A stretch of DNA of 64,000 nt, from the UHGV virus genome UHGV-1384413; one strand, given 5' to 3'. The stretch comes from a virus. Under the pieces are notes generated by a model, which had not been told where the DNA came from, searched no databases, and saw only the letters and a list, made by a program, of their open reading frames with translations. Position 1 is the stretch's first letter. Every line of letters begins with the position of its first letter. Below are positions 42,140-56,844 of the stretch, piece after piece. Made by a program: the position numbers and the translations under genes.

Positions 42140-42593
42140 GGTAACCCTCTATCCACGAAAAGTCAGTCTTCCATTCTGGAACTTTACTAAGCTCACGCCA
42201 CTCTGCAAAGCAGTCTCGGTAATACGCCTCTGCCATACCCTTGGTGATCTTATTCACCTTAGCCAACTGATTAACTGCCTGAGCATACTTTCCACGGATA
42301 TTTGCTAACCCAGGATGCACCGATGTGTGACAATCTGGGCACAACGCTATCAGTCCGACAAGCCGGATCACTCCCTCTTCGAAAGTGTAAAGTTCATGAC
42401 ACTCCACCGGATGTTTGCTGCCTTTACCACCACACACCTCACAAGTGTAGTTGGCTTCTCTGTAACACTTCTTACGGATCTTATCCCACTCACTCTTCTT
42501 CACAGCGTTTCTGAGGTTATTATACCAAGCTGTCTCCGGGATCAGTTGCACAATAAGCCTGCGTTCAGACTTCATTAAACGTCCGTCTTCCAT
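42129..42593 (-). CDS. zinc-binding HNH-like nuclease candidate
   Basis: CEVCGG...HPVECHE...CPDCH pattern; internal ATG at 42593 with GGAGGG RBS. Confidence 0.35.
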   Translation of the reverse strand: MEDGRLMKSERRLIVQLIPETAWYNNLRNAVKKSEWDKIRKKCYREANYTCEVCGGKGSKHPVECHELYTFEEGVIRLVGLIALCPDCHTSVHPGLANIRGKYAQAVNQLAKVNKITKGMAEAYYRDCFAEWRELSKVPEWKTDFSWIEGYLDG

Positions 42594-42811
42594 CAGCCCT
42601 CCAATTTGACCATACAATGACCATCTTTCCACTTAGAAATCGATCTTTCGCCATTAGAGTAATAAACTTCAAGCTTAGCACGGTCATTCTTGATCTGTAT
42701 GACCTTCGCTGTTTCTAGGGAACCATAACCGTAGTATACTGCAACAGTATCTCCCACATACACTACACTCCCGCGATAATCGTGAATATAATCAGTGCCT
42801 TCTAAAGCCAT
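42593..42811 (-). CDS. hypothetical protein (72 aa)
   Basis: ORF-track ORF. Confidence 0.45.
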   Translation of the reverse strand: MALEGTDYIHDYRGSVVYVGDTVAVYYGYGSLETAKVIQIKNDRAKLEVYYSNGERSISKWKDGHCMVKLEG

Positions 42812-52473: not shown

Positions 52474-52560
52474 GGGGAGTTATCCCGTAGAGGTAGCGGT
52501 GTAGACTGTAAATCTATTGTCATTGCGACTCGGGTGGTTCGACTCCACCACTCCCCACCA
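52474..52560 (+). tRNA. tRNA-Tyr (anticodon GTA), long variable arm
   Basis: Acceptor GGGGAGT/ACTCCCC, anticodon loop CTGTAAA, T-loop TTCGACT, CCA encoded. Confidence 0.75.
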
Positions 52561-52674
52561 AATTTACATTTTTAAATGCATAAATTATACAGATAATGAC
52601 ATTGATATTTATCGTCGTTTATACTAGTCACTAACTGCTCGAAAATCAGTGTCATTATCAGTGTAATTTATAAA

Positions 52675-52765
52675 GGAGAGTAGGGAGCAATGGTGCTCAA
52701 GCGGTCTTGAAAACCGTCCCATTGAGGACGACTTGATGATGGTTCGATTCCATTACTCTCCGCCA
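52675..52765 (+). tRNA. tRNA-Ser (anticodon TGA), long variable arm
   Basis: Acceptor GGAGAGT/ACTCTCC, anticodon loop CTTGAAA, 20-nt variable arm, CCA encoded. Confidence 0.8.
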
Positions 52766-52863
52766 TATTGTTAACCTTGTAATTAAGCGAAAGCCGGAAG
52801 CAGAACCGGATTATCAAATGTTACAGTCGTCATCGCCGACTAGCAACATGGTTAACATTATTC

Positions 52864-52960
52864 GCTAGGTAAGCCCTTTGGCAAGGGCGAGGATTTTTAA
52901 TCCTGAAAATAGACGAGGTAGTCGTTGAATACATAGGTGGTTCGATTCCATCACCTAGCA
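52864..52960 (+). tRNA. atypical tRNA-like gene (possible anticodon TTT) with about 30-nt variable region
   Basis: Perfect 7-bp acceptor stem, D-arm and T-arm; anticodon stem only 4 bp; no CCA encoded. Confidence 0.45.
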
Positions 52961-52966
52961 CCTTTT

Positions 52967-54027: not shown

Positions 54028-54311
54028 GAGTTACTGCACTGGTTGTTTTGTGCTTGTTATTGTGTGGGTGTGCAACCAGCGTTGAGAGAGAATACAAGAT
54101 TGACCCTCCGGATGTAGGAAGGTTGATTGTTAAACCTCCCGAGGGTGCTATGAAACCACCTGCTAAAGCTATCCCTTTGAAGAAAGGTGCGCCAGATGCG
54201 GTGAATTCTGGCATTATGAGGGATAATAACCTGTCTTGTAGTAATGATAGGGCTAAATTGATCATTTTGCAAGACTATATAAGAACACTGTTTCCAAAGG
54301 AGAGAGGTTAA
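54024..54311 (+). CDS. o-spanin-like lipoprotein (Rz1-like, proline-rich)
   Basis: Signal/lipobox LLLCGC followed by Pro-rich sequence; CAGGAGG RBS; ATGA overlap with upstream gene. Confidence 0.5.
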   Translation: MRVTALVVLCLLLCGCATSVEREYKIDPPDVGRLIVKPPEGAMKPPAKAIPLKKGAPDAVNSGIMRDNNLSCSNDRAKLIILQDYIRTLFPKERG

Positions 54312-54736
54312 TGTCTAAGATTTACGGACCGTGTTCTGAAAAGCAGAAGATGATCCTAGAGAACGATGCAGATATTTTGGTGATCGGAGGTGCAGCTGGG
54401 TCTGGCAAGTCGTTCCTCTTGCAGCTAATGCCGCTTAAAATTATTGATGACCCGCACAGCTCTGTGGTTATGTTCCGAAGAACAACTCCCCAGTTGGAAG
54501 GTGAGGGTGGGCTATGGCCTAAAGCAGTAGCTATTTACAGTGATCTGCCTGAAAACATTAAACCAAAGTTCAGAGAGAAGGATCATAAGTTTATTTTTCC
54601 ACGGTTTGATCCGAGCACTGGCAAGTGGGATAGGAGCAAAAAGGGGGCCGTTGTAAAATACTGCCACATGGAGTATGTCCAAGATAAGCTTAACCATCAA
54701 GGCCTTGAGTACACCATGGTTTGCTTCGATGAGGGT
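54311..54736 (+). CDS. terL: terminase large subunit, exon 1 (ATPase N-terminal part)
   Basis: Walker A GGAAGSGKS; ORF ends right after Walker B-like MVCFDEG; AAGGAGAG RBS. Confidence 0.65.
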
Positions 54737-55620
54737 TAATTTGTAGCTCTCGTAAAACCTCCCTAATTGCGGGGAAATCTTTATTATTGACACCACCAAC
54801 CTGTCATGGTAACATGATAGAGGCTTCGAAGAGAGATCGAAGGTATGGTAACAGTGTGTTAATTTAGATAATCCGCAGCGAAGCATCCGAGAGGATGAAC
54901 GTTCAACGACTAGTCGAAAGACGTAGAATCAAGCGATTCGAAACGGGAGGGTGAATGTGTAATACTAAAAAAATGTATGGATTGCCAAAGAGTTCTGCCT
55001 CTTGATGATTTCTTTTTATCATCTAAGAGCAAGGATGGATACTCAGGTACATGCAAGGAATGCTATATGTACTACAGGAAGAATGGATCTCGTAGAAACA
55101 AAAATATGGTTAAGAGAGATGATGCAGCATCTTTTGTTCAAGACTTGCTGAAGAAAGGTGAGCTTTTTGAATGTAAATCTTGTCATGAAAGTATGCTTGC
55201 TGATAGTTTTTACACAAAGCGTGACTATGGTAAAGTGTATCTGGTTACGAACAGGTGTAAGATGTGTGAAAAGTTTTATCAGATTGAGAAGAAATTTCAC
55301 ATAACAAAAGATGAATACTATCGTTTACTCTCAGATCAAGATCATAAGTGTGCCATTTGTAGAATATCTCTTGATGAGTATAGGACGCAAGGGTACAGAG
55401 ATTTCTTTTGTGTTGATCATGACCATAAAACTGGTGCTGTAAGAGGGTTGCTTTGTGATAAATGCAACAGAGCTTTAGGGTTCTTCCAAGAGGATGAGGA
55501 AACCATTCTTAGAGCAGCAGAGTATTTGCACATTCATAAGATATAGTCTGGTCTGCATGGAGACATGCAGCTGCCTGAAAATGGCGGGGCAAGACTAGCG
55601 ACCTTGCCCGAACATAAACG
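54737..55620 (+). mobile_element. putative group I intron carrying an HNH homing endonuclease gene
   Basis: Interrupts terL after Walker B; last exon base is T and last intron base is G; boundaries inferred. Confidence 0.5.
54977..55546 (+). CDS. HNH homing endonuclease
   Basis: CxxC zinc sites and DHDHKTGAVRGLLCDKCN HNH core. Confidence 0.7.
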   Translation: MDCQRVLPLDDFFLSSKSKDGYSGTCKECYMYYRKNGSRRNKNMVKRDDAASFVQDLLKKGELFECKSCHESMLADSFYTKRDYGKVYLVTNRCKMCEKFYQIEKKFHITKDEYYRLLSDQDHKCAICRISLDEYRTQGYRDFFCVDHDHKTGAVRGLLCDKCNRALGFFQEDEETILRAAEYLHIHKI

Positions 55621-56742
55621 ACGCAATTCGAATGGGAGCAGATAGACTACCTGATGTCTCGTTTGCGATCTCAGTCAAAGTATCCATCAAGAATGGTTAT
55701 CAGCTGTAACCCCGACTCAGAACACATGCTTGCCAAACTGGTTAGGTGGTGGTTGGACGATGAAGGGTATCCAGATCCGGAGAAATGTGGTAAGAAAAGA
55801 TATTTTATCCGACGCGACGGTGAATTTATTTGGGGAGACTCTAAAGAAGAGTTAATAGAGAAATACACCACGGTTAACGGACTGGGTGTGGAGATCAAGC
55901 CAAGACCGTTGTCATTCTCGTTTATAGGCGCAACAATTTTCGATAATCCTGTCTGCTTGAGAGACAACCCAGAATACCTTGCTTTCCTTGAAGGTCTGCC
56001 AGAGCTTGAAAAAGCCCAGCTTCTTCATGGAAACTGGTTTGCCAAACCTGAGGGTGCAAACTATTTCCAAAGATCTTTCCTTCGGGATGCCGATAGAGTA
56101 CCTCTTGGATCAGTATCTTGCAGGGCATGGGATAAGGCAGGAACCGAGAGAACTTCCGGTAATAAATTTCCTGACTTTACTGCCAGTGTTAAGGTAAGTA
56201 AAGATAGCGACGGCTTTTATTACCTGTCCGGGGATTATTGTCCTGAGAACGTGGATGACGGTAGGTATTCCACAGGTCTGGAAGGAAAGTTCTGTAAAAA
56301 GGCTGGGGAACGAGATGTGATCATCAGGAAACAGGCGCAGTTTGATGGAGATGATTGCATAATCGTATTTTCTGTGGACCCCGGTCAGGCAGGTAAGAGT
56401 GAGTTCTTAACCTCGTCCAGATCCTTGCTCGCCGAAGGGTTCAGGGTTGAAGAAGATCCAATGCCTTCCAACAAATCTAAGCTGACAAGGTTCTCACCTT
56501 TTGCCAATCTTGCCCAACAAGGAATGGTGAGGATTGTAAAATCCAGTTTCCATCCTGACACTCTGGAAGCATTTCTGACTGAACTTGAAAAGTTCAACGG
56601 GGAAAGATCAACATTTAACAGAAAAGACGACTGGGCCGACTGTGTAGCTTCTGCGATTAATTTCCTGGAGAAAGAGGAGGTAGCGCTGCCTTGTGTGATT
56701 CCATCAATCTCATCACCTTCTATGTTCAAGCGTTTTATCTAA
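55621..56742 (+). CDS. terL: terminase large subunit, exon 2 (nuclease C-terminal part)
   Basis: In-frame continuation; acidic RNase H-like nuclease blocks RAWDKAG, VFSVDPGQ, DWADC; exon start inferred. Confidence 0.6.
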   Translation, partial: TQFEWEQIDYLMSRLRSQSKYPSRMVISCNPDSEHMLAKLVRWWLDDEGYPDPEKCGKKRYFIRRDGEFIWGDSKEELIEKYTTVNGLGVEIKPRPLSFSFIGATIFDNPVCLRDNPEYLAFLEGLPELEKAQLLHGNWFAKPEGANYFQRSFLRDADRVPLGSVSCRAWDKAGTERTSGNKFPDFTASVKVSKDSDGFYYLSGDYCPENVDDGRYSTGLEGKFCKKAGERDVIIRKQAQFDGDDCIIVFSVDPGQAGKSEFLTSSRSLLAEGFRVEEDPMPSNKSKLTRFSPFANLAQQGMVRIVKSSFHPDTLEAFLTELEKFNGERSTFNRKDDWADCVASAINFLEKEEVALPCVIPSISSPSMFKRFI

Positions 56743-56844
56743 GTGTTGCCAATCTTAATTAGATGTGGTAGAATAGAGTAATCGGAGATACTGGCCCTCT
56801 GACACGAGGGCTATTTTGTTATACTGTTTTGAGGGGTAAAGCTT

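What the first reader, a model, noticed from the sequence alone, without database searches (positions are those of the whole stretch)
54311..56742. Terminase large subunit gene split by a putative group I intron carrying an HNH homing endonuclease
The terL ATPase reading frame (Walker A GGAAGSGKS) stops immediately after a Walker B-like MVCFDEG (TAA at 54737-54739; last coding base is T at 54736). 884 nt downstream the frame reopens (from 55618; proposed exon 2 start 55621, preceded by G at 55620) and continues with nuclease-domain-like acidic blocks. The intervening sequence carries a free-standing HNH endonuclease ORF (54977-55546) flanked by GC-richer ORF-free sequence with many short complementary stretches. 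A homing-endonuclease intron inserted in a conserved catalytic motif of an essential gene is the classic intron architecture; the U/G splice-site nucleotides fit group I. The exact junctions are inferred.
Basis: partly seen in the sequence, partly recalled or inferred. Interest (0 to 1): 0.8.

Follow-up and report, generated by a model that had tools for sequence, protein, structure and literature searches.

The report
Known group I intron splitting terL
The DNA-packaging enzyme gene (terL) of this rV5-like coliphage is interrupted, one codon after its ATPase Walker B motif, by an 884-base self-splicing group I intron that carries a homing endonuclease gene; this is real and cleanly bounded, but the same element has already been described and annotated in rV5-type phages.

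Summary
The terL frame stops at TAA 54737-54739 and reopens at 55618. Intron-less alleles in close relatives lack exactly 54737-55620 (884 nt).

Rfam's group I model hits 54727-55570 at 50.9 bits (gathering score 50). The ORF-less copy of the same intron in phage JohannBauhin scores 84.3 bits. P1 carries the U54736·G54746 wobble, G55620 is the terminal G, and P3 to P9.2 can all be drawn.

The spliced 516-aa product is 100% identical to an uninterrupted TerL on an IMG/VR contig. It is continuous in the PHROG and Pfam terminase profiles.

The 189-aa ORF sits in the P8 loop. It is an Endo VII-motif (DHHRN family, His-Me finger) endonuclease, not a canonical HNH.

Population data show mobility:
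- Relatives are intron-less, carry an ORF-less intron, or carry the intron with the ORF.
- The base before the intron is T in 14/14 intron-bearing alleles and C or A in 10/10 intron-less alleles.
- The window's differences from its nearest intron-less relative cluster within 47 nt of the junction.

The window's endonuclease copy has an extra A (A7 instead of A6) that disconnects the usual start codon.

Novelty: already known (rV5 genome paper 2013, joined-CDS GenBank annotations, RT-PCR splicing of a terL intron in the sister genus). Interest is low.

The parts
54311..54736 (+). terL exon 1 (142 codons). Walker A GGAAGSGKS is at 54386-54412 and Walker B MVCFDE at 54716-54733. The last base, U54736, is the 5' splice-site U.
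   Evidence: Pfam Terminase_6N profile 2-104. phrog_979 profile 147-273. D140/E141 are invariant in the TerL alignment.
54737..55620 (+). Group I intron, 884 nt.
   Evidence: Rfam RF00028 at 50.9 bits, E 5e-10. Exactly absent from 10 intron-less alleles. The 319-320-nt ORF-less form scores 84.3 bits.
54731..54751 (+). P1 hairpin: GAGGGU|UA (54731-54738) pairs with UAGCUCUC (54744-54751). The U54736·G54746 wobble lies at the 5' splice site. The internal guide sequence is 54742-54751. UGU 54742-54744 can pair with exon-2 ACG 55621-55623 (P10, 3 bp).
   Evidence: All 8 pairs are kept in 12 alleles except one cell.
54758..54950 (+). P3 (54758-63 / 54945-50) encloses the following helices: P4 (54768-73 / 54872-77); P5 (54777-80 / 54866-69); a branched P5 extension (54781-54865); P6/P6a (54878-54902); the P7 5' strand GACUA (54908-12); P7.1 (54913-22, GAAA loop); and P7.2 (54926-39).
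   Evidence: Helix check. Unconstrained MFE folding recovers these helices. Rfam alignment. A C-G to U-A compensatory change occurs in the P5 extension hairpin.
54952..55536 (+). P8: UGAAUGUG (54952-59) pairs with CACAUUCA (55529-36). Its loop holds the endonuclease ORF.
   Evidence: ORF-less alleles have a different but fully paired 8-bp P8 (AUAAGCGG/UCGCUUAU) with a 6-nt loop.
54977..55546 (+). Intron-encoded endonuclease ORF, 189 aa as it stands. Motifs: two N-terminal CxxC...CxxC repeats; CAIC 55349-60; DHDH 55415-26; Arg 55442-44; CDKCN 55454-68. The stop UAG 55544-46 is the first three bases of the P7 3' strand.
   Evidence: Pfam Endonuclease_7, E 2e-21. PHROG 'endonuclease VII' families. 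PDB matches to Hpy99I (1.4e-5) and T4 Endo VII (6e-4). Motif coordinates. dN/dS about 0.1 among copies.
54945..54976 (+). Consensus translation start region of the endonuclease. GGGAGG (54945-50, also the P3 3' strand) serves as the Shine-Dalgarno sequence. AUG 54955-57 lies in the P8 5' strand. The A-run 54967-54973 is 7 A here and 6 A in relatives, which puts AUG 54955 out of frame (16-codon ORF ending at UGA 55003-05).
55544..55620 (+). P7 3' strand UAGUC (55544-48), P9 (55553-70, GAGA loop), P9.1 (55571-87), P9.2 (55588-55608), a 3' tail, and the terminal G 55620.
55621..56742 (+). terL exon 2 (373 codons plus stop): the rest of the ATPase domain and the RNase H-like nuclease domain.
   Evidence: Pfam Terminase_6N profile 110-211 and Terminase_6C. 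phrog_979 profile 274-621.
56792..56813 (+). Terminator-like hairpin with a T-run after terL.
   Evidence: Annotated as a terminator in the HdK5 and Murica records.

Best explanation
Window 54737-55620 is a mobile, self-splicing group I intron of subgroup IA-like architecture. It sits in the large terminase gene of an rV5-like Vequintavirus, between codons Gly142 and Thr143, one codon after the invariant Walker B Asp-Glu.

Inferred mechanism:
1. The terL pre-mRNA folds into the ribozyme.
2. An exogenous guanosine bound in P7 attacks after U54736, which is held in P1 by a U·G wobble with G54746.
3. The freed exon-1 3'-OH then attacks after the terminal G55620.
4. This joins GGU|ACG and yields a 516-aa TerL.

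The P8 loop carries an Endo VII-motif (DHHRN, His-Me finger) homing endonuclease. When made during mixed infection, it should cut intron-less terL alleles near the GGC|ACG site. Repair from the intron-bearing copy then copies in the intron and short exon flanks, including the obligatory U at -1.

The endonuclease's Shine-Dalgarno sequence is the 3' strand of P3. Its usual AUG is in P8 and its stop codon is in P7, so folding of the ribozyme and translation of the ORF should exclude each other.

Shown here: boundaries, core structure, restoration of the ORF, presence/absence polymorphism, co-conversion pattern, and purifying selection on the ORF.

Inferred: splicing chemistry in vivo, endonuclease specificity, and the splicing/translation coupling.
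For: Ribozyme:
- Rfam RF00028 scores 50.9 bits (GA 50) in the window and 84.3 bits, E 9e-21, for the ORF-less allele.
- AAUUGCGGG, AAUCCGCAGC, GUUCAACGACUA and AAGAUAUAGUCU match the model consensus.
- All helices pair and MFE folding finds them unaided.
- On 12 alleles, 99.1% of cells are paired, against 33-41% with slid partners.
- P8 differs between ORF-bearing and ORF-less forms yet is fully paired in both.

Boundaries and product:
- Ten intron-less alleles lack exactly these 884 nt.
- The product is 100% identical to an uninterrupted TerL.
- Profile continuity and a gap-free alignment to distant TerLs.

Mobility:
- Of 123 related terL records, 53 carry the intron and 30 carry the ORF.
- The -1 base is T in 14/14 intron-bearing alleles and C/A in 10/10 intron-less alleles.
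- Against ECP2309, 5 of 21 differences in 2148 nt lie within -4..+43 of the junction.

Endonuclease:
- PF02945 at E 2e-21.
- The DHHRN motif is complete (compared with PMC6083498).
- dN/dS is about 0.1.

Precedent:
- The rV5 paper has a section 'Introns in terminase'.
- Joined CDS annotations exist in BASEL phages, LL12 and rV5_ev146.
- RT-PCR showed splicing of a terL intron in the Vequintavirinae phage CB7.
Against: - There are no RNA data for this phage, so splicing is inferred.
- The window's Rfam score is only just above the gathering score. The 590-nt P8 insert costs score, and the ORF-less allele removes the doubt.
- Covariation within the family is thin because the intron copies are about 98% identical. 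Most pairs never vary.
- The endonuclease copy in this window has an extra A that unhooks the usual start codon, so this copy may not be mobile by its own enzyme.
- The cleavage site and specificity of the enzyme are unknown.
- P10 is only 3 bp.
Confidence: 0.93

Rival explanations
1. The ribozyme is intact and splices, but the endonuclease copy in this particular genome is already disabled. Here the intron would be an immobile passenger, at an early stage of the gain-decay-loss cycle of homing elements.
For: - The window has A7 at 54967-73, where 8 other ORF-bearing alleles have A6.
- The Shine-Dalgarno-linked AUG 54955 now opens a 16-codon ORF.
- The 189-aa ORF starts at AUG 54977 without a Shine-Dalgarno sequence, and it lacks Cys2 and Cys7 of the first CxxC...CxxC unit.
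- Another copy (IMG/VR 3300010279) has an internal frameshift.
- 23 or so relatives have lost or never had the ORF.
Against: - The extra A lies in a homopolymer and could be a sequencing error.
- The rest of the ORF is intact and only 7 nt differ from ECP26.
- Slippage on the A-run, or initiation at AUG 54977, could still give some enzyme.
- The assembly shows only 5 single-base indels in 24 kb against its closest relative, which does not decide the matter.
Confidence: 0.35
2. The insert is not spliced. TerL would be made as two polypeptides (142 aa and about 362 aa from AUG 55654) that assemble after translation, like the mobE-split NrdA of Aeromonas phage Aeh1.
For: - Many GenBank records annotate two separate terminase ORFs.
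- Precedent for unspliced split genes is cited in PMC7344957.
Against: - A complete, conserved group I core with correct splice-site nucleotides is present.
- The ribozyme parts are about 98-99% conserved, while synonymous sites of the ORF have dS 0.12-0.16.
- AUG 55654 would drop 11 conserved residues (TQFEWEQIDYL). Its nearest GGAG lies 16 nt upstream.
- The two-ORF annotations are automatic calls. Curated records use join.
Confidence: 0.03
3. The endonuclease is not selfish. It would be an HNH-type accessory factor of the packaging machine (as HK97 gp74 is for its terminase) that happens to be encoded next to terL.
For: HNH proteins adjacent to terminase genes that stimulate terminase are known (Kala et al. 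2014, cited in PMC7344957).
Against: - About 93 of 123 closely related phages lack the ORF and are viable isolates.
- It sits inside the P8 loop of an intron.
- It belongs to the Endo VII-motif endonuclease clade, which includes intron-encoded members.
- The co-conversion pattern fits homing.
Confidence: 0.02
4. The interruption is an assembly artefact, an intein or a group II intron.
For: None found.
Against: - The same 883-884-nt insert occurs at the same site in 30 independent records.
- A stop codon opens the insert, so it cannot be an in-frame intein.
- No Rfam family other than RF00028 hits the region, even at E<=1.
Confidence: 0.01

Closest known systems
terL intron of Escherichia phage rV5 and other Vequintavirus isolates (Kropinski et al. 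2013, PMC3606486; joined-CDS records such as DrSchubert MZ501060, LL12 MH491969, rV5_ev146 LR699804)
   Same: It is the same element at the same site. The region is 96-98% identical across intron and ORF, and splice junctions are annotated identically.
   Different: - The window's copy has one extra A in the run at 54967-73, which unhooks the usual start codon.
- The window lacks the second terL intron that rV5-type records such as HdK5 carry.
- The window's exons are of the ECP2309/NHEP1 type (99%), with a short converted tract.
terL group I intron of Pectobacterium phage CB7 (Certrevirus, Vequintavirinae; PMC7344957)
   Same: - A group I intron with an endonuclease ORF at the Walker B motif of an orthologous TerL.
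- Splicing was shown by RT-PCR and cDNA sequencing.
- The Rfam group I hit is 35.2 bits.
   Different: - It is inserted 6 nt upstream, between Asp and Glu (IGVD|EGTQF).
- Its endonuclease (CB7_2, annotated HNH) has a different sequence from the one here.
- There is no DNA similarity to the window's intron beyond the core.
Phage T4 nrdB, td and nrdD(sunY) introns and other subgroup IA phage introns (Twort, SPO1, phiKZ relatives)
   Same: - The core stretch 54898-54947 (J6/7, P7, P7.1, P7.2, P3') is 82% identical to the T4/RB3 nrdB intron, and 73-90% identical to introns of Staphylococcus, Bacillus and Pseudomonas phages.
- P7.1/P7.2 lie between P7 and P3', as in subgroup IA (established knowledge: Michel and Westhof 1990).
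- The host gene is essential and conserved, and the insertion is at a catalytic motif.
   Different: - The host gene is different.
- No P2 is present (the Rfam alignment deletes it).
- The P5 extension is large and branched.
- The ORF is in P8 and overlaps J8/7 and P7.
- The endonuclease family differs (from memory: I-TevI and I-TevII are GIY-YIG, I-TevIII is HNH).
- Formal subgroup assignment was not run.
F-CphI and the Endo VII-motif 'DHHRN' homing endonuclease family (Fang et al. 2018, PMC6083498)
   Same: - The catalytic module is C-terminal, with CX2C, DHDH, Arg, CX2C and Asn all present.
- Pfam PF02945 matches.
- The nearest solved relatives are Hpy99I and T4 Endo VII.
- That paper already lists intron-encoded members, in the DNA polymerase introns of Yersinia phage Berlin and LUZ24.
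   Different: - F-CphI is free-standing and works by 'collaborative homing' next to an ORF-less intron. Here the ORF is inside the intron.
- The N-terminal half here is two CxxC...CxxC repeats.
- No biochemical data exist for this protein.
terL group I introns of Lactobacillus phage LL-H and of Bastillevirinae (PMC11878797)
   Same: They are group I introns that interrupt large terminase genes. Splicing was shown in vitro and/or in vivo for SIOphi and phiAGATE TerL.
   Different: The phage lineages, intron sequences and endonucleases are unrelated. Their insertion sites were not compared here.

Membership tests
Group I intron (Rfam RF00028) | Conserved catalytic core (P3-P8 with the P, Q, R, S stretches) detectable by covariance model at or above the curated threshold. 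| tested here: met
   50.9 bits against GA 50 in the window, E 5e-10. 84.3 bits for the ORF-less allele of the same intron.
Group I intron (Rfam RF00028) | 5' splice site after a U that forms a U·G wobble in P1 with the internal guide sequence. | tested here: met
   U54736·G54746 within an 8-bp P1. The U is present in 14/14 intron-bearing alleles.
Group I intron (Rfam RF00028) | Terminal G (omega G) at the 3' end of the intron, with P10 pairing to the 3' exon. | tested here: met
   G55620 is the last base by comparison with intron-less alleles. P10 is only 3 bp: ACG 55621-23 with UGU 54742-44.
Group I intron (Rfam RF00028) | P7 helix (guanosine-binding site) forming a pseudoknot with P3. | tested here: met
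   GACUA 54908-12 pairs with UAGUC 55544-48, crossing P3 (54758-63 / 54945-50). Both are invariant in 12 alleles. Binding of guanosine itself is not testable here.
Group I intron (Rfam RF00028) | Precise excision restores an uninterrupted functional reading frame. | tested here: met
   The join gives 516 aa, 100% identical to an uninterrupted TerL. Profile continuity at 273|274. Gap-free alignment.
Group I intron (Rfam RF00028) | GTP-dependent self-splicing of the transcript. | not testable with these tools
   There are no RNA data. The nearest experimental precedent is the CB7 terL intron (RT-PCR).
Subgroup IA of group I introns | Extra helices P7.1 and P7.2 between the P7 5' strand and the P3 3' strand. 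| tested here: met
   Hairpins at 54913-22 (GAAA loop) and 54926-39. No formal subgroup classifier was available.
Endo VII-motif (DHHRN) homing endonucleases | CX2-4C ... DHDH ... R ... CX2C-N catalytic/zinc module, placed C-terminally. | tested here: met
   CAIC (aa 125-128), DHDH (147-150), R156, CDKCN (160-164) of 189 aa. PF02945 at E 2e-21. Definition taken from PMC6083498.
Endo VII-motif (DHHRN) homing endonucleases | Site-specific cleavage of the element-free allele and promotion of element transfer. | not testable with these tools
   The support is indirect only: presence/absence polymorphism, strict -1 T association, a clustered conversion tract, and dN/dS about 0.1.
Canonical HNH endonucleases (Pfam PF01844 / I-HmuI type) | His-Asn-His/Asn motif with the central Asn, recognised by the HNH profiles. 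| tested here: not met
   Pfam reports only Endonuclease_7 for this ORF at E<=0.01. Only one PHROG named 'HNH endonuclease' matches, and it matches the N-terminal zinc-finger part (aa 3-70), not the catalytic part. Fang et al. separate the Endo VII motif from HNH. It shares the His-Me finger superfamily only.
Terminase large subunit (Terminase_6N / Terminase_6C) | N-terminal ATPase with Walker A and Walker B, and a C-terminal RNase H-like nuclease. | tested here: met
   Pfam hits on both exons. phrog_979 at E 4e-153 on exon 2. GGAAGSGKS and hhhhDE with invariant D140/E141. No sequence-level PDB match, so the 3D check was not done.
Intein | In-frame insertion translated with the host protein. 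| tested here: not met
   TAA is the first codon of the insert.

The most novel reading that the evidence does not exclude
The window may capture a very recent homing event caught at the first step of endonuclease decay.

- An ECP2309/NHEP1-type terL acquired the intron together with a conversion tract of fewer than 50 nt. The U at -1 is an obligatory passenger, because a C or A there would abolish the U·G splice-site wobble.
- The endonuclease then lost its start through a +1 change in an A-run.
- The Shine-Dalgarno sequence lies in P3, the AUG in P8 and the stop in P7. This layout would make splicing and endonuclease translation mutually exclusive.
- The A6/A7 run could act as a slippage-prone on/off switch for the enzyme.
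- The enzyme may serve in competition between co-infecting Vequintaviruses by cutting rivals' terL.
Probability: 0.2. Interest if true: 0.4.

Novelty: already known. Interest (0 to 1): 0.2.

Why it matters
For annotation it matters in practice. Many GenBank records of this phage group still list terL as two or three unrelated ORFs, some with wrong product names, and terL is the standard phylogenetic and packaging-type marker. A correct join (54311..54736, 55621..56742) is needed.

Biologically it is a clean natural series: an empty site, an ORF-less intron, the intron with the ORF, and decaying ORFs. The series includes a visible co-conversion tract and a strict synonymous U/C dimorphism at the splice site. 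That makes the group a convenient system for studying homing by the little-studied Endo VII-motif endonucleases.

It does not open a new kind of biology.

Tried and rejected
- Sequence searches of the spliced TerL, and of a TerL profile, against the PDB gave no meaningful hit. The Walker B assignment therefore rests on Pfam/PHROG profiles and invariant residues.
- The IMG/VR scan returned only 15 terL loci. It was useful for uninterrupted homologues but too few for a large population test.
- Covariation statistics on 12 intron alleles are weak because the copies are about 98% identical. MAFFT also put the ORF-less P8 out of register, so P8 compensation was read directly from the sequences.
- The sigma-70 promoter scan gave 10 sites against 5.6 expected, which is not informative for a virulent phage.
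- Minus-strand ORFs 54512-54886, 55043-55300 and 56385-56729 have no family matches and were dismissed.
- Intein, group II intron, artefact and unspliced split-gene readings were considered and rejected (see the rival explanations).
- The alternative junction one base to the left (exon ending GG, intron T...C) fits intron-less alleles equally by mismatch count. It was rejected because it violates the U(-1) and terminal-G rules.
Full report
**What is in the sequence**

The window is an rV5-like coliphage (Vequintavirus). The region 54311-56742 is 98.2% identical to phage ECP26 and 96-97% identical to many others. Another 24-kb stretch is 98.5-99.2% identical to ECP32, NHEP1, ECP26 and S127 BCL3, so the genome is a close but not identical relative of deposited isolates.

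The local gene order is a tRNA cluster, i-spanin, o-spanin, terL, portal.

Exon 1 (54311-54736) encodes 142 residues with GGAAGSGKS and ends ...MVCFDEG. TAA follows at once. The exon-2 frame reopens at 55618. A 189-codon ORF lies at 54977-55546. The ORF is AT-richer (GC 33-39%) than the flanking non-coding segments (42-49%).

**Boundaries**

Aligning the window with 23 related terL loci gives three allele classes at this site:
- No insert: ECP2309, AlexBoehm, FV3, Murica, nimi, NHEP1, phiWec189, PDX and two IMG/VR contigs.
- A 319-320-nt insert without an ORF: JohannBauhin, LL12, slur12, phiWec191, SophiaRose.
- An 883-884-nt insert with the ORF.

The intron-less alleles lack exactly 54737-55620. 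Across the phage collection, 123 records match terL, 53 carry the 5' half of the insert, and 30 carry the ORF.

**It is a group I intron**

Rfam RF00028 matches 54727-55570 at 50.9 bits (gathering score 50; E 5e-10 in the whole-window search, 1e-11 locally). The low margin is due to the 590-nt insertion in P8. The ORF-less allele of the same intron scores 84.3 bits, E 9e-21.

The four classical conserved stretches match the model consensus:
- AAUUGCGGG
- AAUCCGCAGC
- GUUCAACGACUA
- AAGAUAUAGUCU

I checked each helix directly:

| Helix | Coordinates | Note |
|---|---|---|
| P1 | 54731-38 / 54744-51 | U54736·G54746 wobble exactly at the 5' splice site |
| P3 | 54758-63 / 54945-50 | |
| P4 | 54768-73 / 54872-77 | |
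| P5 | 54777-80 / 54866-69 | branched extension at 54781-54865 |
| P6/P6a | 54878-54902 | |
| P7 | GACUA 54908-12 / UAGUC 55544-48 | pseudoknotted with P3 |
| P7.1 | 54913-22 | |
| P7.2 | 54926-39 | |
| P8 | 54952-59 / 55529-36 | |
| P9 | 55553-70 | |
| P9.1 | 55571-87 | |
| P9.2 | 55588-55608 | |
| P10 | ACG 55621-23 / UGU 54742-44 | 3 bp |

The intron ends with G55620. Unconstrained MFE folding of the ORF-less allele recovers all nested helices.

On 12 distinct alleles, 99.1% of cells are paired, against 33-41% when partners are slid by 1-3 columns. Covariation is sparse because the copies are about 98% identical. It includes a C-G to U-A change, with a U·G intermediate, in the P5 extension.

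P8 is the most telling helix. ORF-bearing copies have UGAAUGUG/CACAUUCA and ORF-less copies have AUAAGCGG/UCGCUUAU. Both are perfect 8-bp stems with different sequences.

P7.1 and P7.2 between P7 and P3' indicate a subgroup IA-like architecture. The core stretch 54898-54947 is 82% identical to the T4/RB3 nrdB intron and 73-90% identical to introns of Staphylococcus, Bacillus and Pseudomonas phages. No P2 is present. Formal subgroup typing was not possible.

**The join restores TerL**

The joined exons (1548 nt) give 516 aa. Four checks show continuity:
- An IMG/VR contig encodes an uninterrupted TerL that is 100% identical over residues 1-515.
- PHROG phrog_979 is matched by exon 1 up to profile position 273 and by exon 2 from position 274.
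- Pfam Terminase_6N covers profile positions 2-104 and 110-211, followed by Terminase_6C.
- Uninterrupted homologues of 34-72% identity align across the junction without a gap. D140 and E141 are invariant.

The intron therefore sits between Gly142 and Thr143, one codon after the Walker B Asp-Glu.

**The endonuclease**

The ORF matches Pfam Endonuclease_7 (E 2e-21) and PHROG 'endonuclease VII' families. Among solved structures it matches Hpy99I and T4 Endo VII.

It has the full CX2C / DHDH / R / CX2C-N module at its C-terminus. This is the Endo VII-motif 'DHHRN' homing-endonuclease family defined with F-CphI, and that paper already lists intron-encoded members (PMC6083498). 'HNH' is therefore right only at the level of the His-Me finger superfamily.

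The N-terminal half has two CxxC...CxxC repeats. Among eight copies, dN/dS is about 0.1, so the protein has been under purifying selection.

The ORF occupies the P8 loop and overlaps the ribozyme core at both ends:
- The GGGAGG that is the 3' strand of P3 lies 4 nt upstream of the consensus AUG (54955) and would serve as its Shine-Dalgarno sequence.
- That AUG lies in the 5' strand of P8.
- The last six codons cover the P8 3' strand and J8/7.
- The stop UAG is the first three bases of the P7 3' strand.

From this I infer that ribozyme folding and ORF translation exclude each other.

In this window alone, the A-run at 54967-73 has seven A. Eight other ORF-bearing copies have six. AUG 54955 now opens a 16-codon ORF. 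The long ORF starts at AUG 54977 without a Shine-Dalgarno sequence and lacks two cysteines of the first zinc-binding unit. The assembly has only 5 single-base indels in 24 kb against its nearest relative, so error and real mutation cannot be told apart.

**Evidence of mobility**

The base before the intron is T in 14/14 intron-bearing alleles and C (8) or A (2) in 10/10 intron-less alleles. All three are synonymous Gly codons. U is what the U·G wobble needs, so this base must travel with the intron.

The window's exons are of the ECP2309 type. Over 2148 nt there are 21 differences, and five of them (-4, -1, +30, +31, +43) lie within 47 nt of the junction. About 0.4 would be expected there from the rate elsewhere. 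The interval was chosen after looking at the data, so the excess is indicative only. This pattern is what co-conversion during homing leaves behind.

**What is already known**

- The rV5 genome paper has a section 'Introns in terminase': terL in three segments, one with a homing endonuclease, with intron placement credited to D. Shub.
- The LL12 announcement states that terL and the DNA polymerase gene are disrupted by introns.
- BASEL, LL12 and rV5_ev146 records annotate the same join.
- In the sister genus Certrevirus, phage CB7 has a terL intron shown by RT-PCR to splice. I find that it lies 6 nt upstream (D|E), has a different endonuclease, and gives a 35.2-bit group I hit.
- terL group I introns are also known in phage LL-H and in Bastillevirinae.

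The finding is therefore real, correctly interpreted and already described. What this analysis adds is a base-level structure, the endonuclease family, the ORF/core overlap, the co-conversion evidence and the A-run frameshift.

**Rivals**

- An unspliced split TerL is very unlikely, given the intact and highly conserved ribozyme and the lack of a proper start for exon 2.
- A packaging-accessory role for the nuclease is contradicted by its absence from about three quarters of relatives.
- An intein, a group II intron and an assembly artefact are excluded.
- The one open question is whether this copy's endonuclease is still functional.

Noticed in passing
window 54955-55005 (A-run 54967-54973): The window has A7 where 8 other ORF-bearing intron copies have A6. 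The usual endonuclease start AUG 54955 therefore opens only a 16-codon ORF, and the long ORF begins at AUG 54977 without a Shine-Dalgarno sequence. This is either a homopolymer sequencing error or the first step of endonuclease decay.
   Followed up: partly
window ~55937|55938 (empty site); L002 2628-3606, L031, L035, L014: Relatives (HdK5, SophiaRose, PDX and an IMG/VR contig) carry a second 979-980-nt insertion in terL at codon ~248 (GATI|FDNP). It has an I-HmuI-like HNH ORF and weak Rfam group I hits (34.9 and 24.3 bits). The window lacks it. Alignment-based ends give A as the last base. Shifting both ends by one base gives U(-1) and a terminal G, with a synonymous ATA in place of ATT.
   Followed up: partly
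window 52864-52962 (+): A 99-nt tRNA-like gene is called 'tRNA-???' with a 4-base anticodon by ARAGORN (Rfam tRNA 35.5 bits). It folds as a cloverleaf with a long extra arm and an unusual anticodon stem-loop (AGGAUUUUUAAUCCU).
   Followed up: partly
window 52474-52962 versus L037 1036-1257: ARAGORN calls tRNA-Tyr, tRNA-Ser and the odd tRNA between tRNA-Arg and tRNA-Thr in the window, a spacing of about 500 nt. The JES2013 RefSeq record annotates no tRNA in its roughly 220-nt Arg-Thr interval. The tRNA complement therefore varies among close relatives.
   Followed up: no
L010 (IMGVR_UViG_3300010279_000001), intron ORF: This copy of the intron endonuclease has an internal frameshift (89-aa and 120-aa pieces). 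It is a second example of endonuclease decay in the family.
   Followed up: no
window 54787-54815 (+): A sigma-70-like TTGACA-17-TAACAT with an upstream TG (10/12 matches) lies inside the P5 extension, upstream of the endonuclease ORF. Three ORF-less alleles have TTAATA in place of TTGACA. It could be an internal promoter or chance.
   Followed up: no
L023 (Pectobacterium phage CB7) 385-1347: The experimentally spliced CB7 terL intron is inserted 6 nt upstream of the window's site (between Asp and Glu of Walker B) and carries a different endonuclease. Two different introns therefore target the same motif in sister genera.
   Followed up: partly
database records MG0656xx ('Campylobacter phage A142, A141, C15' and others): About 18-21 records labelled as Campylobacter phages are 96-97% identical to these coliphages across terL and elsewhere. 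This suggests mislabelled hosts or contaminating coliphages.
   Followed up: no
GenBank records of relatives (L006 ECP26, L032 APECc02, L002 HdK5): terL exon 1 is annotated as 'putative recombinase endonuclease' in ECP26. In APECc02 the product names are shifted by one gene. In several records the exons are 'hypothetical protein'. The join is missing in many records.
   Followed up: no
window ~42593-42808: The window has about 215 nt that are not aligned in its closest relative, S127 BCL3. They lie next to genes annotated there as HNH endonuclease and transposase-like proteins. This is possibly another small mobile-element polymorphism.
   Followed up: no
one search hits H96, H97, H99 (Av-05, SYGMH1, TH18); H81 (HMD-6, 2 places): The intron's P4'-P6-P7 stretch matches other loci of Vequintavirinae genomes at 86-94% identity. 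It probably marks the related DNA polymerase intron mentioned for LL12. No second group I hit exists in this window.
   Followed up: no
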